Assembly: GCA_044226625.1 (NCBI GenBank)
Contig: JBGAGQ010000095.1
Coordinates: 1 to 17,523, forward strand
DNA from: Thermoanaerobaculia bacterium
GTDB lineage: Bacteria; Acidobacteriota; Thermoanaerobaculia; Multivoradales; UBA5704
Direction: 5' to 3'
Length of the DNA: 17,523 nt
A program made the translations under genes and the position numbers. Below the pieces are notes generated by a model that saw only the letters and a list, made by a program, of their open reading frames with translations, was not told the origin of the DNA and searched no databases. Shown here piece after piece: positions 1 through 7,569 of the stretch. Positions within the stretch are counted from its first letter, which is position 1; each line of letters opens with the position of its first letter.

Positions 1-3
1 TAC

Positions 4-33
4 TTGCCGATCGCGGAGGTTTTCGTCTATTCT
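4..33 (+). promoter_or_regulatory. Putative sigma70 promoter of the tRNA gene
   Basis: TTGCCG (4-9), 18-bp spacer, TATTCT (28-33), then a GC-rich discriminator (TCCGCGCC) typical of stable-RNA promoters, about 27 nt upstream of the tRNA. Confidence 0.55.
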
Positions 34-60
34 TCCGCGCCTGCCGTTGGCCTTGCCCGT

Positions 61-137
61 GCAGCCATAGCTCAACTGGATAGAGCGACAGACTACGGAT
101 CTGTAGGTTGGGGGTTCGACTCCTCCTGGCTGCACCA
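61..137 (+). tRNA. tRNA-Arg (anticodon ACG)
   Basis: Acceptor stem GCAGCCA (61-67)/TGGCTGC (127-133), D-arm TAGCTCAACTGGATAGAGC, anticodon stem ACAGA/TCTGT with loop CT-ACG-GA (ACG at 95-97), T-loop GTTCGAC, encoded CCA at 135-137. Confidence 0.97.
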
Positions 138-296
138 CCTTCACTGCTGATTTACCATAGCATTGAGGGAGTAATTGTGCTGTGGCTGATACCCTGACTT
201 TCCGTGACCCGGGACCTGACTCGACCAGAAAAAGCTCTTCGACCTGAGGGGAAGCTCGCCCTTAGGCCGTTGGTGCTAACGGACAGTTACAGTCCT

Positions 297-1010
297 CTAT
301 CCACCGACGGGCATTTCATCCCAAGTTCGTCCGTCGAGGAGCCGCCCAGCCCTCTTTTTGTTCACGCCACCCCATTGTTTGAAGAAGAAAGGGACGTTTG
401 CGGCTCTACATTGGTCGCGAATAGAAACAACCCAGTCTGTCTGCATTGGGCGCGAACCGTGGCCGGACTCCCCTCCGACGATAACCCAGCCGATTCCTTT
501 AAGTTCCAGGTTCGACAAAGGGCCCAAGAGAGGTTCCAGCGACAAGAACCGCACTCTCGCGGGAATTGTTCGCAGGTCGTCAATTCGGGTGACGTACCTA
601 TCGCTCTCTACACTAACTCCTACCCAGATATTTTCCGTCCAATTCAATAGCGAAGCAACCTGCGCGAGCCTATTTGCTCGCTTAGTGAGGATCTGAAATC
701 GGTGCCAGTGAGCACGGTTCATCACAGAAAAGACTTGCTCAATATACTGTATCGGCACTCTGTCATGAAAAAGATCGCTCATCGAGTTGACAAAAATTGC
801 CTGTGGCTTCTTCCAGCGTAAAGGTAGCTCTAACATTTGAGGTTGCAACGTCAGATTGAAACCATCCCGATAGTTTGGCTGCCCCATTGCCTGCAATCTC
901 TCGGCCATCCTTTCGGCGTAGCAGTGTTTGCATCCGGGACTGACCTTGTCGCAGCCGGTAACGGGGTTCCAGGTGGACTCTGTCCATTCAATCGCTGATC
1001 CAAGGCCCAT
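297..1010 (-). CDS. DUF5131 / phage Gp37-Gp68 family protein (three-Cys motif, radical-SAM-like)
   Basis: 237 aa. Family signatures: [29 protein letters not shown] (Cx6Cx2C), [46 protein letters not shown]. Confidence 0.93.
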
Positions 1011-1015
1011 GGTTT

Positions 1016-2140
1016 TTATACCTCTCTACGCGGGAAGGTGGCCCAGATGTCGTCCGCAAAGCCTTTAGTAGACTTACGTCCGGAGGTTGTAATTCCTCCC
1101 CTCGTCTCGAGAGCCGCCAAGACATCTTTGTAGTTCCGCTTAATATATGGACGATCTACGCTATGTTCTCTGTAGATGTCTTCCATCTTCAGGGTGCGAC
1201 CTTCGAATTGAGTAAGCAGCATCGCCTCCAACTCATCGAGGGGACGATTCAAGTCAAAGAGAAGTTCTTGCCTAGCGCTATCGGCAGGTGAAAAAGTAAA
1301 GCTCGGAACTCCTTGCGAGAACGATGAACTGCTCTTGCTCATGACCTCCTTCATAACCTCATAACCCTTGAAGTGTTTCGTAACCAAGATCAAGTGATGG
1401 GTCGTCCTTGTGCCCCTATCATTCTTGAAGCAGAATGGTAGTACGAGCCGATGTCCGTATGCCTTCAGCGCGAGAGCAAGGGCATTAACAATCGTCGCCT
1501 CTCTTTGAATTGGGGTCATTGGCTCAAGTTCACTTCGAAGCCTATCCGCTTCTTGCTCTCCAAAAAGTGCAGCCATGTGTTGTCTCACTAGGGGGTTAGA
1601 CAGGCCAGCATTGATTCTGGCATAGTTAAAGAAGAATATGCAGTCACACCCCCAATCCTTCAGAAAAGCATCGACGAGGCGTAGGGTCAAGCCCTTATAG
1701 CCCCATGGATCGATGAAGGCAAGTATGGGAATCTTGTTGATGGATTCAAACTGGCGAGCGATCTCATCTCCAACCTCCTGATTCCATATTTGAGGCTTAT
1801 GACGGAGGCTGTTGATGCCTGGCAACGCTTCAATCGCCGAAGTGAGGCTGCTAGCATATTCCGGGTCGCGATCGTTAAAGATAGTGGTTAGTCGTGATGC
1901 CAGATTCGGATCGCTTATGGCCTTTTGAAGGACCCGTAGAGGAGTCGAGATGGCTCCGTCCTTATACCGCCCAGGGCCGGCAAAAAGGTCGATATAGCCA
2001 ATCTTGTTCATTGGACTTGACGACCATTTATTCTGTGCACCTGAAATGATGCGAGCCCAAGCGTCGAAGTACTTCTCGACAATTGTGGCCTTCACTAGAG
2101 ATTGCTCTGTGGTCTCGTTAAAGAATTTATCCGTTGCCAT
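1016..2140 (-). CDS. tcmP: Three-Cys-motif partner protein TcmP family (SAM-dependent methyltransferase-like, probable C-terminal winged HTH)
   Basis: 374 aa. N-terminal [29 protein letters not shown] (SAM-binding motif I-like) and AFIDPWGY. It stops 5 bp upstream of the DUF5131 gene, the usual partner of this family. GAGG RBS. Confidence 0.85.
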
Positions 2141-2524
2141 GGATACCTCAAAAAACTAGGTTCTCGCGGTGGAAGTTTCAGGGCTAGAACAAAGCGACTA
2201 CTCGGCTTTAGCGTGCGGCGCGTCGAGCATTCATTATTATGAGATTATACGTCAACATCGCCAGGTTTAGGTAGGCTAATAATGTTGCGGCCTCGAGAAT
2301 CCTTTGGGACACCGCCTTCAGCCTTCCTTGTGCCTGCAATCCAAACCGGCCACATGAGAGCGGAATCCATTTACGCAGGGCGATTCGACGGTGAGGCGGG
2401 CCGAGGTAGAGACCACGCCCAGAGTCTAAAGGTCCACTATTTTTTGGTTGTTTCCCAGCCCTTGGCGAAGCTGGCGTTCAGATGTTCCGGAAACGTCAGG
2501 GCTCGGCCTGAGCCCTGACCCGCC

Positions 2525-2941
2525 GAGGTCGTAGGAAAGGTTCGCACCCTGGGGCGGGTTTTCGGCGGTGAAGTCGTCGGTCCCCCTGCTCCTGCCGTCC
2601 TGGCGCCTGGCTCGGATGTGAGGGGGACGAACCACCAGGCGGTCCTGACAGGGAGGAGCTGAGCCTCTCGTTCGAACCCGCCGGAAGAGAGCTGTCGCAG
2701 CGGGATGTAGACGTCGAGCACGTATCCCCGGCCGAAGCTCGCTCCCCCGACGTCACGAACGGGATCGTCGGTAGGCCGCTCATCTTTTCCCAGTGTCTGC
2801 CGTGGTCAACGGTAAGGTAGATGCCAAATTCCGTTCCGAGGAGGAATGGGTCGGGGCGGGCCTGGTTCTGCTGGATCGCCCAAAGATCGTCCCCCTCCGG
2901 TGGGTCGCCACCGATCGAGCCCACGAGCTGCCGTGGTCGGT
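2525..2941 (-). pseudogene. Degenerate internal fragment of the BNR/VPS10 gene (copy of 5176-5631)
   Basis: Colinear with 5176-5631. The ungapped block 2781-2882 vs 5461-5562 is 88/102 identical. The translation WAIQQNQARPDPFLLGTEFGIYLTVDHGRHWEKMSGLPTIPF matches WAIQQDQVRPDLFFLGTELGIYFTIDHGKHWEKMGGLPTIPF. It has several frameshifts and a deletion of about 27-30 nt near 2748. Confidence 0.92.
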
Positions 2942-2973
2942 CGCGGCGGGGTAGGGACAGGGAAGCTACTAAC

Positions 2974-3058
2974 CTATTGTGGCTCGCAATCCGACTCGAT
3001 GACGTAGCCGATGGCCTTGATCACGTGCCGCGATGCAGATCTCGCCGGGTTCGATCAC
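2974..3058 (-). pseudogene. PemK/MazF-like toxin remnant with internal deletion
   Basis: The GTG start overlaps the upstream stop (GTGA). It reads MIEPGEICIA (MazF-like N-terminus), then out of frame VIKAIGYVIESDCEPQ*, which I recall as a C-terminus of some PemK/MazF homologues. Only 85 nt remain. Confidence 0.6.
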
Positions 3059-3273
3059 GGTTCATCTTGCGTCCGACCCGTTGCATTTCGCAAGGCAACC
3101 GAACGAATCGTGAGTTGCCGACGCTCCTCGAGGAGTACTTCGCGTACCTCCTGGTACTCCTCAGCCCGAATCAGAACGCAAGCCTCGCCGGTCCGGGGAT
3201 CTACCATTTCGGGAATGGAAGATCCGGTCCAGTCGGCCGCTTGCTGCTGTTCCTTGGTCAACGGAATCGCCAC
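3055..3273 (-). CDS. Small putative antitoxin (72 aa) upstream of the MazF-like remnant
   Basis: GGAGG RBS 7 nt before the GTG at 3273. Sequence MAIPLTKEQQQAADW...VDPRTGEACVLIRAEEYQEVREVL; its stop overlaps the toxin-remnant start. Confidence 0.6.
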   Translation of the reverse strand: MAIPLTKEQQQAADWTGSSIPEMVDPRTGEACVLIRAEEYQEVREVLLEERRQLTIRSVALRNATGRTQDEP

Positions 3274-3328
3274 GACGGCACCTCCTGGGATTCGCACATG
3301 GGGGAAGTAGGTGCCGCAGCCCAGCGCC

Positions 3329-3616
3329 TTAGGCCGCGCTCTTCTTGTGCGCCTCCATGTAGGCTCGCATCAAAGCGTTGATCCTCGTCTGGTATCCGCT
3401 TCCTTGCTGGCGAAACCACTCCAGAACCTCACGGTCCACGCGGATCGTCAGTTGTGCTTTCGGAGCGACCGGTTTGAGCCCGCGCCGGACAATCGCTCGT
3501 GCGAAGAACTCCGGGCTCAACTCGGGAATCTCGCTCGTGTCGATGTCCTCGTCGCTCAACGCATCAAGGCGGGCGAAGTCAGTGCCTAATACTCGCGAGG
3601 AAGATTTTCTTTTCAT
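3329..3616 (-). CDS. brnA: BrnA family antitoxin
   Basis: 95 aa. DEDIDTSEIPEL and C-terminal KAQLTIRVDREVLEWFRQQGSGYQTRINALMRAYM (BrnA RHH signature). Overlaps brnT by 38 bp. Confidence 0.92.
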   Translation of the reverse strand: MKRKSSSRVLGTDFARLDALSDEDIDTSEIPELSPEFFARAIVRRGLKPVAPKAQLTIRVDREVLEWFRQQGSGYQTRINALMRAYMEAHKKSAA

Positions 3617-3854
3617 GGTTCGTCGCTCTTCGTGCCGAGATGATCCGAATTACCTGATCCGTTTCAGTATGTGCAACTACCAGCAGCCGCTGGTTGAGTA
3701 ATCCGAACGTCAGGAAACGAGATTCGGGGTACTCGAACCGGTCGTCTCTATCCGTGTAGGTGGGGCCCGCAAACAGAACCTCGAGATCGGCAAAGTCGAC
3801 GCCGTGCTTTGCGAGATTCGATCGCCTCTTGCGCTCGTCCCACTCGAACTTCAC
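3579..3854 (-). CDS. brnT: BrnT family ribonuclease toxin
   Basis: 91 aa, GTG start. MKFEWDERKRRSNLAKHGVDF...ESRFLTFG...IRIISARRAT signatures. Confidence 0.94.
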   Translation of the reverse strand: MKFEWDERKRRSNLAKHGVDFADLEVLFAGPTYTDRDDRFEYPESRFLTFGLLNQRLLVVAHTETDQVIRIISARRATNHEKKIFLASIRH

Positions 3855-3861
3855 GCAAGAG

Positions 3862-3890
3862 ATCGTAACTACAGGGAGTAACTACGTCAA
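3862..3890 (-). promoter_or_regulatory. sigma70 promoter of brnTA with overlapping GTAGTTAC operator repeats
   Basis: Minus strand TTGACG (3890-3885), 17 bp, TACGAT (3867-3862), ending 7 nt before the GTG start. Two exact GTAGTTAC copies (3865-3872, 3878-3885) overlap the hexamers. Confidence 0.7.
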
Positions 3891-3949
3891 GGCTCGCGCC
3901 GAGGCCCATGCCTGCGGCTGGGCGCTGGCCTCCCCACAAGTCACGCCAA

Positions 3950-4003
3950 TTAGGGATCGATCGGCATGAAGGCCAGAATGATGTGGGTATCGAGAACGAT
4001 CAC
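3950..4003 (-). pseudogene. Truncated VapC/FitB (PIN) toxin remnant
   Basis: The GTG overlaps the antitoxin TGA. It reads MIVLDTHIILAFMPIDP*, i.e. the PIN N-terminal motif (I-V-L-D-T) and a stop after 17 residues. Confidence 0.7.
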
Positions 4004-4247
4004 GACTCGAACTCAGCAGGCCGAGCCTCTCCCCCGCGCAACTCAGGAATCTCCTCGGTGAGCCCGATACCGACGAAGCGGGCTGCCAGCCTTGACCCGA
4101 GCGGCACGCGAGACCGACCTTCTTCTCGAACCGCGATGCGGGGGACCTCTCGAACCTCTTCCTCGGGCTGCGGCCGTGCCGGCGCGCGCGGATTTCCAGT
4201 TTGTTCTTCACATCGCCCTCGGGGTGTCGCACGACAAGTTGAGTCAT
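4000..4247 (-). pseudogene. Frameshifted FitA-like ribbon-helix-helix antitoxin
   Basis: MTQLVVRHPEGDVKNKLEIRARRHGRS in one frame continues as EEEVREVPRIAVREEG...LGSRLAARFVGIGLTEEIPELRGGEARPAEFES in another. A 1-nt deletion near 4165 breaks the usual HGRSxEEEVR motif. Confidence 0.75.
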
Positions 4248-4299
4248 GGTGAAGTGAGGTCACGATATCTGGCATGAAGGCCGGCGGCGCCCCGGGGAT

Positions 4300-7200
4300 T
4301 CACCGCCCCGGAGTCCAAGGCGCCCCCGCCGCCGTGAAGGCCTCCTTCAGCCGTGCGAAATCCCCTGCGATCAGCGCCTTCAAATCGCGCTCCAGCGCAA
4401 CCAATCCCGCCTCGGCGATCTCGAGATCTCGCCGCTGAGTGGCGGTCGGCATCTGGCGGGTCTCCCAATGTCCGTCTTTCACCGTAGAGACGCGGCTGCC
4501 GATCGTTGGGGATTCCGACTCGGATAGTTTCTGTCGTGCGGGGTCGCCTTCGAGCCGAAGCTTCAAGCCCGCCGCGGCGCGGCTCACGGCGTCCAGTTGG
4601 CCGTAGAGCGCCGGGTCCGCCTTGGGCGTTTCGGCGAGCGTCGCGCGCATGTGCTTGAGCTGATCTTGGAGCTTATCGAGCTCGGCCGAGGCGGACGACA
4701 CGCGCCGTAGCGCCTCCGCCGTTCGCTGTTGGAAGGCGGCGACCGCCTGAGGGTCGGTGCCGGGGGCGAGGTTTTCGACCGGCTTCACTTCGAAGGACTG
4801 GGGCGTCCCGAGCGAACGCACGCCGCTTGCCGAGACGACCACCAGCTCGACGGTATAGCGGCCTGGGGCGACCAGCGGGCCTCTTGAGGGCTGGTCCCAG
4901 GGCGACTGGAAAGCGGGGGGTTCGAGCACGACCGGCTCGGGGTTGGCGCTCCGCAGATCCCAATTCACGCGCTGGAGCCCTTCTTTTGCCGGCCCTTCGA
5001 TCGCCCGAACCTTTCGCCCGGTCGCATCGGAGACGAGGAGCAACACTTTCGGTTTCTCTTCGAGCGCCTCGTCGCGCAGGCGTTCGAAGCCGGGAAACGG
5101 CGCGTCGGCGCCCTTCTTGGCGAGCGCCTCTTCGCTCTTCTGCCGCGCCTCGTGCGCGGTCGTTGGCGCCTCGCGGAGGTAATAGGAAAAGAGCGCGCCC
5201 TGGGGCGGATTCTCGGTGGTGAAGTCGTCGGTCCCCTGCTCTGGCCGTCCGGGCGCCTGGCCCGGCTGCCAGGGGACGAACCACCAGGCGGTCCTGACGG
5301 GGAAGAGCTGAGCTTCCCCGTCGAAGCCAGCGGAGGTGAGCTGTCGGAGCGAGGAATAGTCGTCGAGCACGTAGAGGCCCCGTCCGAAGCTCGCTCCCAC
5401 GAGGTCGCCGTCGCGCCGTTGGATCTTCACGTCGCGGAACGGGATCGTCGGCAGGCCGCCCATCTTTTCCCAGTGCTTGCCGTGGTCGATGGTGAAGTAG
5501 ATGCCGAGTTCCGTCCCGAGGAAGAACAGGTCGGGGCGGACCTGGTCCTGCTGGATCGCCCAGGCGATCGTTCCCTTCGGCCCCTTCGGGAGATCGCCCG
5601 CCATCGAACGCCACGAGCGGCCGAGGTCGGTGCTCTCGAAAACGTATGGCGAAAAGTCGCCGGTCTTGTGATTGTCCGCCACCACGTAGAGCGTCGACCC
5701 GTCGACGACCGACATCTCGACGTCGTTGACGAACGAGAGAACCGGAAGCCCGGGGAGGGCGGCCGAACGGCTCCAGCTCTCGCCGCCGTTCGCGCTGATC
5801 TGCACCAGGCCGTCGTCCGTGCCGACGGTCAGAACCCCTTCTTTCACCGGCGATTCGGAGATCGCCGTGGTGGTCGCGTATTTGGACATCGCGCTGTTGT
5901 CGAACAGGGAATCGACGCTCCAGACCCGCCCCATGAACTTCTGCTCGTAGCGGTTCTGACCCTGCGTGAGATCGCCGCTGATCGGCGTCCAGCTGTTGCC
6001 CCGGTCGTCGCTTCGCCAGACTCTCTGCGAGCCGAAGTAGATCCGGTTCGGGTGATGAGGGCTCACGAGGATCGGCGAGTCCCACCCCCACCGCTCGGGC
6101 GCTTCGCCCTCCGCGGGCTGCGGTTGGATCATCAAGCCCTCGTCGTTCCGCCGGTCTTTGCGGAAGAGATTCCCCTCCTGCGACATGAGATACATGAGGT
6201 CCGGATCTTCCGGATCGAACGCGACGCCGTACCCGTCGGCTCCGAACGGCACGTACCAATCCTGGTTGCGGATCCCGTCGCGGTTGAGCGTCCGGGATGG
6301 GCCGTGGAGGGTCCCCAGGTCCTGCGCGCCGGCCAGGATGTCGTAGAACGGCTCGCGCTGGTTGAGCGCGATCTTGTAGATCTGGGAGACCGGCAGGTTG
6401 GGAAAATGCCGCCAGGTCTGGCCTTCGTCGAAGCTCTCGTAGAGCCCGGCGTCCGTGCCAACCAGCAGATGGCGGCCCATGCCCGGGTTGCTCGGGTCGA
6501 TCCAGAGCGCGTGGTTGTCGCTGTGTTTGTCGTACCCGGTCTCCAGATAATCCATCGTCTTTCCGCCGTCGCGGGTCACGTGGAGGAAGACGTCCATCTG
6601 ATAGACCAGGTCGGCGTTCGTGGGCGAGGCCTCGATCTCCTGGTAGTAGTGCGGTCCGGTGCCGCCGGAGATGTAGTCGTTCCGCTTCTCCCAGCTCTCC
6701 CCCCGGTCGCGCGAGCGATAGAAGCCGCGCTCCTCCGCGTTCGCCTCAATGGTGGCGTAGACGATCGACGGGTCGGCCGGTGTCGTCGCGAGGCCGATCT
6801 TCCCCATGTCTCCCTTGGGGAGGCCGCTCGTGACCTGGCGCCAGGTCTTGCCGTTGTCGGTCGATTTCCAGATGCCGGATTTCGGCCCGCCGCCCAGGAA
6901 TCCCCAAACGTGGCGGCGCCGCTCGTAGGCCGCGGCGTAGACCACATCCGGATTCCCCGGATCGAACTCCAGATCGGTCGCCCCTGTGTTTTCGTCGATC
7001 TGGAGCACGGGCGTCCAGGTGGAGCCGCCGTCGACGGTTCGGTAGACGCCCCGCTCTCCCCCCGAAGACCAGAGCGGCCCTTCGGCGGCTACCAGCACGA
7101 CGTTGCCGTCGCGCGGATCGACCAGAATTCTGCCGATGTGCTGCGAGGCGGCAAGCCCCATCCGTTGCCACGATCGGCCCGCGTCGCGGCTTCGGTACAC

Positions 7201-7569
7201 CCCGTCGCCCCAGCCGACGTGCCGGCCGCTCACGTTCTCGCCCGTTCCCACCCACACCACGTCCGGGTTCGTCGGATCGAGCGTGATCTCGCCGATCGAG
7301 TAGGACGCCTGATCGTCGAAGACCGGGGTCCAGGTGACCCCGGCGTTGGTGGTCTTCCAGACGCCGCCCGAGCCGGCCGCCACGTACCAGGTCCCCTGCG
7401 CCGTCGGATGCACCGCGATGTCGGAGATCCTGCCGCTCATGAACCCGGGGCCCAGGCTCCGAAACGGCAGCGCGGAGGCCACCTTGGCGAGGGGAGAGTC
7501 GGCGGCCTCGGAGGCCTGGGCGGCCGAAGCCAAGGCCAGGGCGAAGAGAGCGATCGAGAGGGTGCGCAT
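4300..7569 (-). CDS. Secreted BNR/Asp-box repeat, VPS10/sortilin-like beta-propeller protein (often annotated as glycosyl hydrolase)
   Basis: 1089 aa. Signal peptide MRTLSIALFALALASAAQA, FRSLGPGFMSGRISDIAV, many S/T-x-D-x-G-x-S/T-W Asp boxes (KTTNAGVTW, SRDAGRSW, TVDGGSTW, STDNGKTW, SRDRGESW, SFDEGQTW, SDDRGNSW, STDLGRSW), and a helical C-terminus. Confidence 0.9.
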   Translation of the reverse strand: MRTLSIALFALALASAAQASEAADSPLAKVASALPFRSLGPGFMSGRISDIAVHPTAQGTWYVAAGSGGVWKTTNAGVTWTPVFDDQASYSIGEITLDPTNPDVVWVGTGENVSGRHVGWGDGVYRSRDAGRSWQRMGLAASQHIGRILVDPRDGNVVLVAAEGPLWSSGGERGVYRTVDGGSTWTPVLQIDENTGATDLEFDPGNPDVVYAAAYERRRHVWGFLGGGPKSGIWKSTDNGKTWRQVTSGLPKGDMGKIGLATTPADPSIVYATIEANAEERGFYRSRDRGESWEKRNDYISGGTGPHYYQEIEASPTNADLVYQMDVFLHVTRDGGKTMDYLETGYDKHSDNHALWIDPSNPGMGRHLLVGTDAGLYESFDEGQTWRHFPNLPVSQIYKIALNQREPFYDILAGAQDLGTLHGPSRTLNRDGIRNQDWYVPFGADGYGVAFDPEDPDLMYLMSQEGNLFRKDRRNDEGLMIQPQPAEGEAPERWGWDSPILVSPHHPNRIYFGSQRVWRSDDRGNSWTPISGDLTQGQNRYEQKFMGRVWSVDSLFDNSAMSKYATTTAISESPVKEGVLTVGTDDGLVQISANGGESWSRSAALPGLPVLSFVNDVEMSVVDGSTLYVVADNHKTGDFSPYVFESTDLGRSWRSMAGDLPKGPKGTIAWAIQQDQVRPDLFFLGTELGIYFTIDHGKHWEKMGGLPTIPFRDVKIQRRDGDLVGASFGRGLYVLDDYSSLRQLTSAGFDGEAQLFPVRTAWWFVPWQPGQAPGRPEQGTDDFTTENPPQGALFSYYLREAPTTAHEARQKSEEALAKKGADAPFPGFERLRDEALEEKPKVLLLVSDATGRKVRAIEGPAKEGLQRVNWDLRSANPEPVVLEPPAFQSPWDQPSRGPLVAPGRYTVELVVVSASGVRSLGTPQSFEVKPVENLAPGTDPQAVAAFQQRTAEALRRVSSASAELDKLQDQLKHMRATLAETPKADPALYGQLDAVSRAAAGLKLRLEGDPARQKLSESESPTIGSRVSTVKDGHWETRQMPTATQRRDLEIAEAGLVALERDLKALIAGDFARLKEAFTAAGAPWTPGR

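What the first reader, a model, noticed from the sequence alone, without database searches (positions are those of the whole stretch)
297..2140. tRNA-linked TcmP + DUF5131 operon: candidate methyltransferase/radical-SAM nucleic-acid modification or anti-phage system
Seen: two intact genes 5 bp apart on a lower-GC islet abutting tRNA-Arg, next to a TA cluster in which other genes are decaying. TcmP has YIDLFAGPG (SAM motif I-like), FIDPWGY (resembling the DPPY-type catalytic motif of amino-methyltransferases) and a probable C-terminal wHTH. The partner has Cx6Cx2C instead of the canonical radical-SAM Cx3Cx2C. Knowledge: these families are known to co-occur and DUF5131 also occurs in phages, but I know of no demonstrated function. 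Inference: a two-step DNA/RNA base-modification module acting in defence or counter-defence. No nuclease is present in the window.
Basis: partly seen in the sequence, partly recalled or inferred. Interest (0 to 1): 0.72.

Follow-up and report, generated by a model that had tools for sequence, protein, structure and literature searches.

The report
Mobile methyltransferase plus radical-SAM gene pair
Two intact, foreign-looking genes beside a tRNA gene encode a methyltransferase-shaped DNA-binding protein and a small iron-sulfur radical enzyme; the pair is widespread, already catalogued as an untested anti-phage candidate, and its chemistry is still unknown.

Summary
Window 297-2140 (minus strand) carries two intact genes 5 bp apart: TcmP (374 aa) and DUF5131 (237 aa). 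Their G+C is about 0.50, against 0.65-0.72 for the rest of the window.

The pair is a member of a catalogued kind: NCBIfam TIGR04474 plus Pfam PF07505, which PADLOC lists as candidate systems PDC-M30/PDC-M41. Both were predicted by "guilt-by-embedding" and are unvalidated. This scan has noted the pair before on other DNA (160 notes, at least 155 genomes), and one note is marked "in print".

Confident models show TcmP as a class I SAM methyltransferase closest to rRNA m6A methyltransferase RlmJ, with a C-terminal winged helix. DUF5131 is a radical-SAM barrel closest to spore photoproduct lyase, with an invariant Cx6Cx2C.

In 79 of 80 related loci the two genes lie in the same locus, adjacent in most, in four different orientations. 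Only the two genes are shared at DNA level. In 33 of 79 loci an immediate neighbour is a restriction, defence, toxin-antitoxin or mobile-element gene. A Gordonia temperate phage carries the pair beside its immunity repressor.

Best reading (about 0.5): a mobile two-enzyme module that modifies nucleic-acid bases, probably with a conflict or defence role. The chemistry, target and phenotype are inferred, not shown. The tRNA link looks incidental.

The parts
61..137 (+). tRNA-Arg(ACG). It flanks the islet and is not shown to be part of it.
   Evidence: ARAGORN. Rfam RF00005, 65.9 bits. No repeat of its 3' end in window 1-5000.
297..1010 (-). DUF5131 / 'Gp37/Gp68' three-Cys radical-SAM-type enzyme, 237 aa
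   Evidence: PF07505 E 1.1e-104. PADLOC PDC-M41B E 4e-122 and PDC-M30B E 2.2e-117. phrog_2045. Model pLDDT 90.5. Best fold match is spore photoproduct lyase, Z 13.9.
921..953 (-). Codons of the Cys triad C20-x6-C27-x2-C30, the presumed [4Fe-4S] ligands
   Evidence: Translation. All three Cys are invariant in 90 aligned sequences.
1011..1015 (-). 5-bp spacer between the two genes
   Evidence: ORF coordinates.
1016..2140 (-). TcmP, 374 aa: RlmJ-like class I SAM-methyltransferase fold plus a C-terminal winged helix
   Evidence: TIGR04474 E 4.2e-59. PADLOC PDC-M30A E 5.3e-21. Model pLDDT 95.1. RlmJ Z 16.8.
1073..1294 (-). Winged helix-turn-helix domain of TcmP (residues 283-356)
   Evidence: PF22560 GMT-wHTH E 1.6e-15.
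1964..1996 (-). TcmP motif I, Y49[10 protein letters not shown]59 (SAM-binding loop)
   Evidence: G55 and G57 are invariant; Y49, D51, L52 and Y59 are at least 90% conserved in 132 sequences. Resembles YLDTHAGAGRY of E. coli RlmJ.
1697..1711 (-). TcmP motif IV, D144-P-W-G-Y148
   Evidence: D144 and G147 are invariant; P145 and Y148 are at least 90% conserved. It follows strand 139-143 of the model.
2090..2092 (-). Codon of the invariant K17 in the first helix of TcmP
   Evidence: Invariant in 132 sequences. Helix 12-39 of the model. Proposed counterpart of RlmJ K18 (inference).
2141..2300 (-). Low-G+C leader upstream of tcmP, with GAGG at 2146-2149, 5 nt before the ATG
   Evidence: Sequence. 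G+C 0.475. The consensus scan called no promoter here.

Best explanation
Window 297-2140 is a horizontally acquired two-gene cassette of the TcmP-DUF5131 kind (PADLOC candidate PDC-M30 type).

I propose that the two enzymes act together on a base in nucleic acid, most likely DNA:
- TcmP binds through its winged helix and holds a flipped-out base in an RlmJ/Trm1-like amino-methyltransferase pocket. That pocket contains K17, the motif I GxG and D144 of DPWG, and would use SAM as methyl donor.
- DUF5131 holds a [4Fe-4S] cluster on C20/C27/C30, cleaves a second SAM to a 5'-deoxyadenosyl radical and abstracts a hydrogen from the base or sugar, as its closest solved relative, spore photoproduct lyase, does on DNA.

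The cassette most probably serves in conflict between hosts and mobile elements (defence or self-marking).

Shown: gene integrity, family membership, folds, conserved residues, tight genetic linkage, mobility and genomic contexts.
Inferred: the substrate, both chemistries, cooperation of the two proteins and the phenotype.
For: Identity: HMM hits far above cut-off.

Folds:
- TcmP model has pLDDT 95.1. Its best matches are RlmJ 6qe5 (Z 16.8, rmsd 3.1, 210 residues), the RlmJ-family protein 2oo3 (Z 16.0) and tRNA m2,2G methyltransferase Trm1 3axt (Z 14.7). Foldseek gives only class I methyltransferases at the top.
- DUF5131 model has pLDDT 90.5. Its best match is spore photoproduct lyase 4fhc (Z 13.9, rmsd 2.9, 196 residues). 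That is 2.3 Z units above the next match, viperin (11.6), and other radical-SAM enzymes follow. SPL is also the only Foldseek hit at E <= 1e-3.

Catalytic residues:
- K17, G55, G57, D144 and G147 are invariant in 132 TcmP sequences of 36-81% identity.
- In RlmJ, K18 and D164 of DPPY are essential for methyl transfer (PMC3814359, passages read).
- C20, C27, C30 and G179-G180-E181-S182 are invariant in 90 DUF5131 sequences.

Linkage:
- 79 of 80 related loci hold both genes. The arrangements are 53 co-directional TcmP-then-DUF5131, 20 convergent, 5 DUF5131-then-TcmP and 1 divergent.
- In a 151-genome phylum sample, 18 of 19 TcmP-positive genomes have DUF5131 within about 400 bp. The 19th match is at a contig end.

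Mobility:
- DNA similarity to all 80 loci stops at window 292-2143.
- The pair is more than 3 G+C points below its flanks in 54 of 71 loci.
- Distribution is patchy: 21 of 106 genera.

Context:
- In 33 of 79 loci an immediate neighbour is a restriction, defence, toxin-antitoxin or mobile-element family. This is my hand classing.
- Examples: hsdS-TcmP-DUF5131-hsdR (L023), hsdM-hsdS-TcmP-DUF5131 (L025), and Mrr plus an AAA_5 ATPase next to the closest relative, L003.
- Gordonia phage Angelique gp43 is a TcmP (TIGR04474 at 125 bits; hhalign probability 98.8%). It lies directly downstream of, and on the same strand as, the immunity repressor gp44, and is convergent with the DUF5131 gene gp42.

Variable partner: this genome has a second pair of PDC-M41 type on contig C58. 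The two DUF5131 proteins are 62% identical, but the two TcmPs only 25% over 99 residues (E 0.021).
Against: - I found no experiment on any member. Literature searches for DUF5131, TcmP, TIGR04474, PF07505, PDC-M30 and PDC-M41 gave only listings.
- The cassette has no recognisable effector such as a nuclease.
- TcmP is not a sequence-level member of the RlmJ family. It gave no PF04378 hit at E <= 0.01. hhalign against E. coli RlmJ gave probability 11%, and a pairwise alignment scored z = 2.5 against shuffles.
- The K17/K18 and D144/D164 equivalence is read from motif order and alignment ranges, not from a residue-level superposition.
- DPWG is not the canonical (D/N/S)PP(Y/F/W).
- The neighbour count has no background control. 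46 of 79 loci have no such neighbour, and many cyanobacterial copies sit between housekeeping genes.
- In most phages DUF5131 stands without a detectable TcmP, inside early or DNA-metabolism gene blocks. That fits DNA metabolism or repair as well as defence.
Confidence: 0.5

Rival explanations
1. DNA-damage repair or tolerance module. DUF5131 reverses or processes a DNA lesion by radical chemistry, as spore photoproduct lyase does. TcmP recognises or processes the lesion. The cassette is simply mobile.
For: - SPL is the best fold match.
- Phage copies lie among replication and recombination genes: RecT, RuvC and a PAPS-reductase-like gene in prophiGD08-3; MazG-like, HNH and ParB-like neighbours elsewhere.
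- Earlier notes of this scan report LexA operators at some pairs.
- Here an E. coli-type box with one mismatch lies in the divergent promoter of the betaproteobacterial locus L035. Exact CTGT-N8-ACAG boxes lie upstream in L045 and L047.
- A Peptidase_S24 gene is next to the pair in L014.
Against: - None of the five LexA-type consensus patterns was found upstream of tcmP or beside the tRNA in this window (the consensus patterns were recalled from memory).
- With one mismatch allowed, boxes are only 2.4-fold enriched upstream (0.51 against 0.21 per kb). Two of the four exact hits are TcmP coding sequence.
- Patchy distribution, low G+C, embedding in type I restriction operons and a place next to a prophage repressor are unusual for core repair genes.
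Confidence: 0.17
2. RNA-directed abortive-infection or housekeeping RNA-modification pair. TcmP methylates a tRNA or rRNA base as RlmJ and Trm1 do, and DUF5131 modifies the same RNA further.
For: - The three best fold matches of TcmP are RNA methyltransferases: RlmJ, the RlmJ-family protein 2oo3 and Trm1.
- Embedding between hsdS and hsdR (L023) recalls the anticodon nuclease PrrC. The Payne preprint names PrrC as almost exclusively embedded in type I RM systems.
Against: - The best DUF5131 match acts on DNA.
- Per the RlmJ paper, the RlmJ active site resembles DNA m6A methyltransferases.
- TcmP carries a winged helix.
- A housekeeping role does not fit presence in only 19 of 151 sampled genomes.
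Confidence: 0.12
3. Small-molecule route. DUF5131 converts a free nucleotide into an antiviral analogue, as viperins do, and TcmP methylates or senses it.
For: Viperin is the second-best fold match (Z 11.6). Prokaryotic viperins are known radical-SAM defence enzymes (my recollection; Bernheim et al. 2021 appears only as a citation).
Against: - SPL scores 2.3 Z units higher than viperin.
- TcmP has a DNA-binding-type domain, and its closest folds act on polynucleotides.
- No nucleotide kinase or transporter accompanies the pair in the neighbours scanned.
Confidence: 0.06

Closest known systems
PADLOC phage-defence candidates PDC-M30 and PDC-M41 (TcmP + DUF5131), predicted by 'guilt-by-embedding' (Payne et al., bioRxiv 10.1101/2024.01.29.577857)
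   Same: Both window proteins match the A and B models: PDC-M30A E 5.3e-21, PDC-M30B E 2.2e-117, PDC-M41B E 4e-122. They are adjacent. Relatives are embedded in type I RM operons.
   Different: Nothing differs in kind. This is one more instance. PDC candidates are unvalidated (PMC12988326 and PMC10855318, passages read). The preprint's tables defining each PDC are supplements that I could not open.
RlmJ, 23S rRNA m6A2030 methyltransferase (Pfam PF04378; PDB 6qe5, 4blu)
   Same: Best fold match of TcmP (Z 16.8). Same order of features: a first-helix Lys, a Y-x-D-x-x-A-G-x-G-R-Y loop, an (S/T)-P-L turn and an I-D-P motif IV. The Lys and Asp are essential in RlmJ.
   Different: No significant sequence match. 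TcmP has DPWG where RlmJ has DPPY. From my reading, TcmP lacks the helical insertion after motif I, has a helical insert after strand 166-172 and adds a winged helix. RlmJ works alone, on rRNA.
Spore photoproduct lyase SplB (PDB 4fhc)
   Same: Best fold match of DUF5131 by two methods. Neighbouring megacluster in RadicalSAM.org. Radical-SAM enzyme acting on a DNA base.
   Different: 10-13% identity. DUF5131 is about 100 residues shorter (237 against 340). Its cluster motif is Cx6Cx2C, not Cx3Cx2C. The SPL catalytic Cys/Tyr relay was not mapped here. No SPL or Radical_SAM Pfam hit.
rSAM_mob_pairA (NCBIfam TIGR04471), 'radical SAM mobile pair protein A'
   Same: Weak homology (89.2 bits), and the same idea of a mobile two-gene radical-SAM pair.
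   Different: The score is far below the cut-off of 355, so this is a different family.

Membership tests
TcmP (NCBIfam TIGR04474) | HMM score above the curated cut-off | tested here: met
   200.6 bits against cut-off 53, profile positions 1-262 of 263.
TcmP (NCBIfam TIGR04474) | Adjacent three-Cys (PF07505) partner gene | tested here: met
   5 bp apart in the window. Both genes present in 79 of 80 related loci.
DUF5131 (Pfam PF07505) | HMM score above the gathering cut-off, full length | tested here: met
   349.7 bits against 28.9, profile positions 2-243 of 243.
DUF5131 (Pfam PF07505) | Conserved three-Cys motif | tested here: met
   C20, C27 and C30 are invariant in 90 sequences.
PADLOC PDC-M30 | Components A and B both present and adjacent | tested here: met
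   PDC-M30A E 5.3e-21; PDC-M30B E 2.2e-117. The B protein scores slightly better on PDC-M41B (E 4e-122).
PADLOC PDC-M30 | Anti-phage activity | not testable with these tools
   PDCs are described as unvalidated. No test was found in searches.
Radical SAM superfamily | Partial TIM-barrel fold shared with solved radical-SAM enzymes | tested here: met
   The top 20 VIA matches are all radical-SAM enzymes: SPL 13.9, viperin 11.6, LAM 11.2, LIAS 10.9 and others. Listed as a subgroup by RadicalSAM.org.
Radical SAM superfamily | Canonical Cx3Cx2C cluster motif | tested here: not met
   The motif is Cx6Cx2C. Variant spacings are known in the superfamily (my recollection).
Radical SAM superfamily | Match to Pfam Radical_SAM (PF04055) | tested here: not met
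   No hit at E <= 0.01.
Radical SAM superfamily | [4Fe-4S] binding and reductive SAM cleavage | not testable with these tools
   Needs anaerobic biochemistry.
Spore photoproduct lyase family | Sequence-family membership | tested here: not met
   No SPL-family Pfam hit. No PDB sequence hit at E <= 10. Fold likeness only.
Spore photoproduct lyase family | Catalytic Cys/Tyr hydrogen-relay residues | not tested
   No residue-level superposition was available.
RlmJ family (Pfam PF04378) | HMM or profile match | tested here: not met
   No hit at E <= 0.01. hhalign probability 11%. PF04378 does find E. coli rlmJ at 424 bits.
RlmJ family (Pfam PF04378) | Fold with a first-helix Lys and a motif IV Asp | tested here: inconclusive
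   Best fold match, Z 16.8. K17 and D144 are invariant. Their equivalence to K18 and D164 is inferred from motif order.
Class I SAM-dependent methyltransferases | Rossmann-like fold with a GxG motif I and an acidic residue after strand 2 | tested here: met
   412 Foldseek matches at E <= 1e-3, with the listed top ranks almost all methyltransferases. G55 and G57 are invariant; N89 and D90 are at least 90% conserved after strand 84-89.
rSAM_mob_pairA (TIGR04471) | HMM score above cut-off | tested here: not met
   89.2 bits against cut-off 355.

The most novel reading that the evidence does not exclude
A nuclease-free, restriction-like system. The conserved SPL-like radical enzyme would run lesion chemistry 'forwards': it would write a cross-link or other radical lesion into DNA at sites chosen by the highly variable TcmP subunit. 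TcmP's methyl mark, or the winged helix's choice of site, would spare the host's own DNA.

This would explain three observations:
- No nuclease is needed.
- DUF5131 stays 62% identical while the two TcmPs of this genome are barely alignable.
- The pair sits inside restriction operons and beside a prophage repressor.
Probability: 0.12. Interest if true: 0.85.

Novelty: new member of a known kind. Interest (0 to 1): 0.3.

Why it matters
The pair is very common: 2,441 clusters of TcmP relatives at 50% identity, and presence in roughly one genome in eight of the sampled phylum. It is tightly linked and mobile, yet nobody has shown what it does.

If it modifies DNA or RNA, it would add a radical-SAM step to the known repertoire of epigenetic or defence chemistry. 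If it defends without a nuclease, that would be a new effector logic.

This particular instance adds little beyond the catalogue entry. Its use is as a clean, intact, compact (1.85 kb) example. It also comes from a genome that carries both subtypes, PDC-M30-like and PDC-M41-like, which makes partner-swap experiments natural.

Tried and rejected
- Complex prediction of TcmP with DUF5131: no verdict (score 0.17, mark 0.32). This says nothing either way.
- Sequence search of PDB: one chance-level hit for TcmP (E 0.43), none for DUF5131, and none of relevance for the TcmP profile.
- hhalign of the TcmP profile against E. coli RlmJ: probability 11%, covering only the motif I stretch. Smith-Waterman against shuffles gave z 2.5 and misplaced motif I.
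- ESM Atlas search: best named cluster 0.78, 'hypothetical protein', no lead.
- Search for an att-type repeat of the tRNA end or any inverted repeat in window 1-5000: only one 14-nt chance pair.
- Promoter/terminator scan of 1-2600: nothing upstream of tcmP, and counts were at shuffle level.
- Rfam: only the tRNA.
- LexA-type boxes: five consensus patterns, recalled from memory, were all absent from the window's two non-coding flanks. Across relatives the enrichment is small.
- tblastn of the window TcmP against 50,697 phage records: no match. This was a sensitivity limit, because a phage TcmP was then found by HMM and 8 Gordonia phage records by tblastn with that protein.
- Fused forms: 2 long proteins found. 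P0391 (664 aa) is DUF5131 followed by TcmP, but it is a single contig and loses the invariant WGG after FFFKQ, so it may be a frameshift artefact. P0392 (911 aa) carries PF20441 and was not followed up. N-terminal extensions of 13 longer TcmPs held no Pfam domain.
- A PF04378 search in the window's phylum, meant to collect RlmJ sequences, gave only 2 of 151 genomes over cut-off and was of no use.
- The Ophion radical-SAM defence system (bioRxiv 10.1101/2025.09.30.679545, passages read) is a different three-gene system.
- My recollection that Trm1 has a DPFG motif IV could not be confirmed: no paper held both terms. It is therefore not used as evidence.
Full report
**What is there**

The window is a whole 17.5-kb contig (G000:C103) of a 6.6-Mb, high-G+C genome. 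On the minus strand lie two intact ORFs: 1016-2140 (374 aa) and 297-1010 (237 aa). They are separated by 5 bp, with GAGG 5 nt before the first ATG. tRNA-Arg(ACG) lies at 61-137 on the plus strand.

The two genes have G+C 0.49 and 0.52 and GC3 0.54 and 0.58. The resident sortilin/BNR gene has G+C 0.67 and GC3 0.86.

Upstream of the pair lie:
- a three-frame remnant of a paralogue of that sortilin/BNR gene, at about 2525-2900;
- an intact BrnT/BrnA pair, 3579-3854 and 3329-3616;
- an ORF with a sub-threshold FitA-like start, 3882-4247.

The rest of the window holds ordinary genes: YCII, two sigma factors, a CoA-transferase and a TPR protein kinase.

**Family identity**

The long protein is a TcmP: TIGR04474 at 200.6 bits against a cut-off of 53. 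It carries a PF22560 winged helix at residues 283-356.

The short protein is DUF5131/'Gp37/Gp68': PF07505 at 349.7 bits against 28.9, and phrog_2045 of unknown function.

PADLOC's models for the candidate systems PDC-M30 and PDC-M41 match both proteins. PDCs are 'phage defence candidates' predicted by 'guilt-by-embedding', and they are not validated. My sources were passages of bioRxiv 10.1101/2024.01.29.577857, PMC12988326 and PMC10855318. The last reports PDC-M30 in 32 of 100 Pseudomonas aeruginosa strains, 68.8% of them in its phage-resistant groups.

Searches for DUF5131, TcmP, 'three-Cys-motif partner', TIGR04474, PF07505, PDC-M30 and PDC-M41 returned only listings:
- a RadicalSAM.org table;
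- two Sinorhizobium papers that merely name TcmP;
- two Pseudomonas surveys.

I found no functional study.

This scan has noted the same pair 160 times in at least 155 other genomes, and one of those notes is marked 'in print'.

**Structure of TcmP**

With 132 sequences of 36-81% identity, the model has pLDDT 95.1. Foldseek returns class I SAM methyltransferases.

The full alignment search ranks:
- RlmJ first (6qe5: Z 16.8, rmsd 3.1, 210 residues);
- the RlmJ-family protein 2oo3 second (Z 16.0);
- Trm1 third (Z 14.7);
- generic methyltransferases follow at Z 13.7 or less.

Only five residues are invariant across the family: K17, G55, G57, D144 and G147.

By eye, TcmP and E. coli RlmJ share four features in the same order:
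- a Lys in the first helix: LVK17ATIV against VLK18HTV;
- the loop Y-(I/L)-D-x-x-A-G-x-G-R-Y;
- an (S/T)-P-L turn;
- I-D-P at the end of strand 4.

In RlmJ, K18 and D164 of DPPY are essential, and the authors liken its site to DNA m6A methyltransferases (PMC3814359, passages).

The likeness is structural, not statistical. There is no PF04378 hit, hhalign gives 11% and a pairwise alignment gives z 2.5. So TcmP works like an amino-methyltransferase on a flipped base (inference), but it is not an RlmJ family member.

**Structure of DUF5131**

With 90 sequences of 45-83% identity, the model has pLDDT 90.5.

Spore photoproduct lyase is the best match by both methods. VIA gives Z 13.9, rmsd 2.9 and 196 residues, with viperin next at 11.6. 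Foldseek gives E 3e-4, the only hit at or below 1e-3. Every other top match is a radical-SAM enzyme.

C20, C27, C30 and G179-G180-E181-S182 are invariant. That GGE-type motifs bind SAM is my recollection. The cluster motif is Cx6Cx2C, not the canonical spacing.

**Linkage and mobility**

Of 80 loci from other genomes, spanning many phyla at 51-81% TcmP identity, 79 hold a DUF5131 gene. The arrangements are:
- 53 co-directional downstream. 46 of these are within 100 bp by my ORF calls. The other 7 show larger overlaps or gaps, partly from over-long ORF starts.
- 20 convergent with overlapping ends, mostly cyanobacteria.
- 5 with DUF5131 first.
- 1 divergent.
- 1 with none (L074).

Adjacency that survives changes of orientation argues for a functional tie, not just a shared transcript.

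DNA similarity between the window and every locus is confined to 292-2143, so the two genes alone are the unit that moves.

The pair is more than 3 G+C points below its flanks in 54 of 71 loci and above them in 1. Only 2 of 79 loci have a tRNA within 3 kb, and no att-type repeat exists here. The tRNA is therefore probably just a neighbour.

In a sample of 151 genomes of the window's phylum:
- TcmP is over cut-off in 19 genomes.
- DUF5131 is over cut-off in 31. One of the 31, G024, is flagged unpublished. G049, also flagged, has only a sub-threshold match.
- None of the three same-order genomes has either gene.
- In 18 of the 19 TcmP genomes a DUF5131 gene lies within about 400 bp.

**Two subtypes in one genome**

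Contig C58 holds a second pair: a short TcmP (274 aa, no winged helix, PDC-M41A E 1e-71) convergent with a DUF5131 gene. The two DUF5131 proteins are 62% identical. The two TcmPs share 25% over 99 residues, E 0.021. So the radical enzyme is conserved and the partner is highly variable. This agrees with earlier notes of the scan and suggests that TcmP is the specificity-bearing part (inference).

**Context**

I scanned the nearest ORF on each side of the pair in the 79 loci, 150 proteins in all. By my own classing, 33 loci have a restriction, defence, toxin-antitoxin or mobile-element family next door. Ten of these have unambiguous restriction-modification parts (L003, L006, L017, L019, L023, L024, L025, L026, L044, L081). 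No background rate was computed, and 46 loci show nothing of the kind. Many cyanobacterial copies lie between housekeeping genes, and L075 lies between gyrB and gyrA.

Telling cases:
- hsdS-TcmP-DUF5131-hsdR in L023;
- hsdM-hsdS-TcmP-DUF5131 in L025;
- the pair directly upstream of hsdM-RhuM-hsdS in L044;
- Mrr plus an AAA_5 ATPase after the pair in L003, the closest relative;
- GmrSD after the pair in L024;
- a Thoeris-type TIR gene in L013.

**Phages**

DUF5131 is found in 181 of 50,697 phage records, mainly Mycobacterium and Gordonia phages. The window's TcmP finds none by tblastn.

Even so, Gordonia phage Angelique gp43, annotated 'methyltransferase', is a TcmP: TIGR04474 at 125 bits and hhalign probability 98.8% over 334 columns. 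It lies directly downstream of, and on the same strand as, the immunity repressor gp44. It is convergent with the DUF5131 gene gp42 and lies near the integrase. Eight Gordonia phage records hold such a gene. This is the position where temperate actinophages keep prophage-expressed defence genes (my knowledge; compare PMC6426606, of which I read one passage).

Elsewhere in phages DUF5131 stands without TcmP among early and DNA-metabolism genes. Its neighbours include a PAPS-reductase-like protein with a weak SspD match (E 9.4e-8), a MazG-like pyrophosphohydrolase, HNH and ParB-like nucleases, and a C5 cytosine methylase. This again points to DNA as the substrate, but it fits repair or self-modification as well as defence.

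**Regulation**

None of five recalled LexA-type consensus patterns occurs in the window's flanks. Among relatives:
- Exact CTGT-N8-ACAG boxes occur upstream in L045 and L047.
- A one-mismatch, E. coli-like box lies in the divergent promoter of L035.
- Two further 'hits' are TcmP coding sequence.
- With one mismatch allowed, the enrichment is 2.4-fold.

SOS control may hold for some lineages but is not general in this subfamily.

**Verdict**

The best-supported reading is a mobile, two-enzyme, nucleic-acid base-modifying cassette with a probable conflict or defence role (about 0.5). The rivals are a DNA-repair module (0.17), an RNA-directed module (0.12) and a viperin-like small-molecule route (0.06).

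This is a new member of a known, catalogued but uncharacterised kind.

Noticed in passing
G000 contig C58, locus L083:7560-9234: The same genome holds a second pair of the other subtype, PDC-M41-like: a short TcmP without winged helix, convergent with DUF5131 and overlapping its 3' end. It lies in a 61-63% G+C dip next to a multi-haem cytochrome gene.
   Followed up: partly
window 2525-2900 (-): A remnant of a paralogue of the 1089-aa sortilin/BNR-repeat gene (4300-7569). It matches residues 664-798 of that protein in three different reading frames, so it is a frameshifted pseudogene.
   Followed up: partly
window 3329-3854 (-): An intact BrnT (91 aa) / BrnA (95 aa) toxin-antitoxin pair whose reading frames overlap by 38 bp. 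Next to it, ORF 3882-4247 matches a FitA-like ribbon-helix-helix only in its first 25 residues, below the cut-off. It is probably a decayed antitoxin.
   Followed up: no
L086 (Gordonia phage Angelique, MH651167.1) 3992-5844: gp42 (DUF5131) and gp43 (annotated 'methyltransferase', here shown to be a TcmP) form a convergent pair directly downstream of the immunity repressor gp44. Related phages (Bosnia, ThankyouJordi, WelcomeAyanna, Easley) have gp43-like genes.
   Followed up: partly
L087 (Mycobacterium prophage prophiGD08-3, MW584201.1) 4001-6114: A 325-aa DUF5131 protein, annotated 'RNA methyltransferase', is followed by a PAPS-reductase-like protein with a weak match to the phosphorothioation protein SspD. 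This may be an alternative partner for DUF5131 in phages.
   Followed up: no
L075:7866-9867: In an Abditibacteriales genome the pair sits between gyrB and gyrA.
   Followed up: no
L015:10034-12892: A UvrD/PcrA-type helicase gene next to the pair carries an intein (Intein_splicing and Hint matches at residues 247-462).
   Followed up: no
P0391 (664 aa, single 3.1-kb contig): A single reading frame with DUF5131 followed by TcmP. The invariant WGG after FFFKQ is lost at the junction, so it may be a frameshift or assembly artefact and not a true fusion.
   Followed up: partly
Pfam PF04378: The model is named 'RsmJ' in the library, but in E. coli K-12 it hits rlmJ (b3499) at 424 bits and not rsmJ (b3497). 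The short name is misleading.
   Followed up: yes
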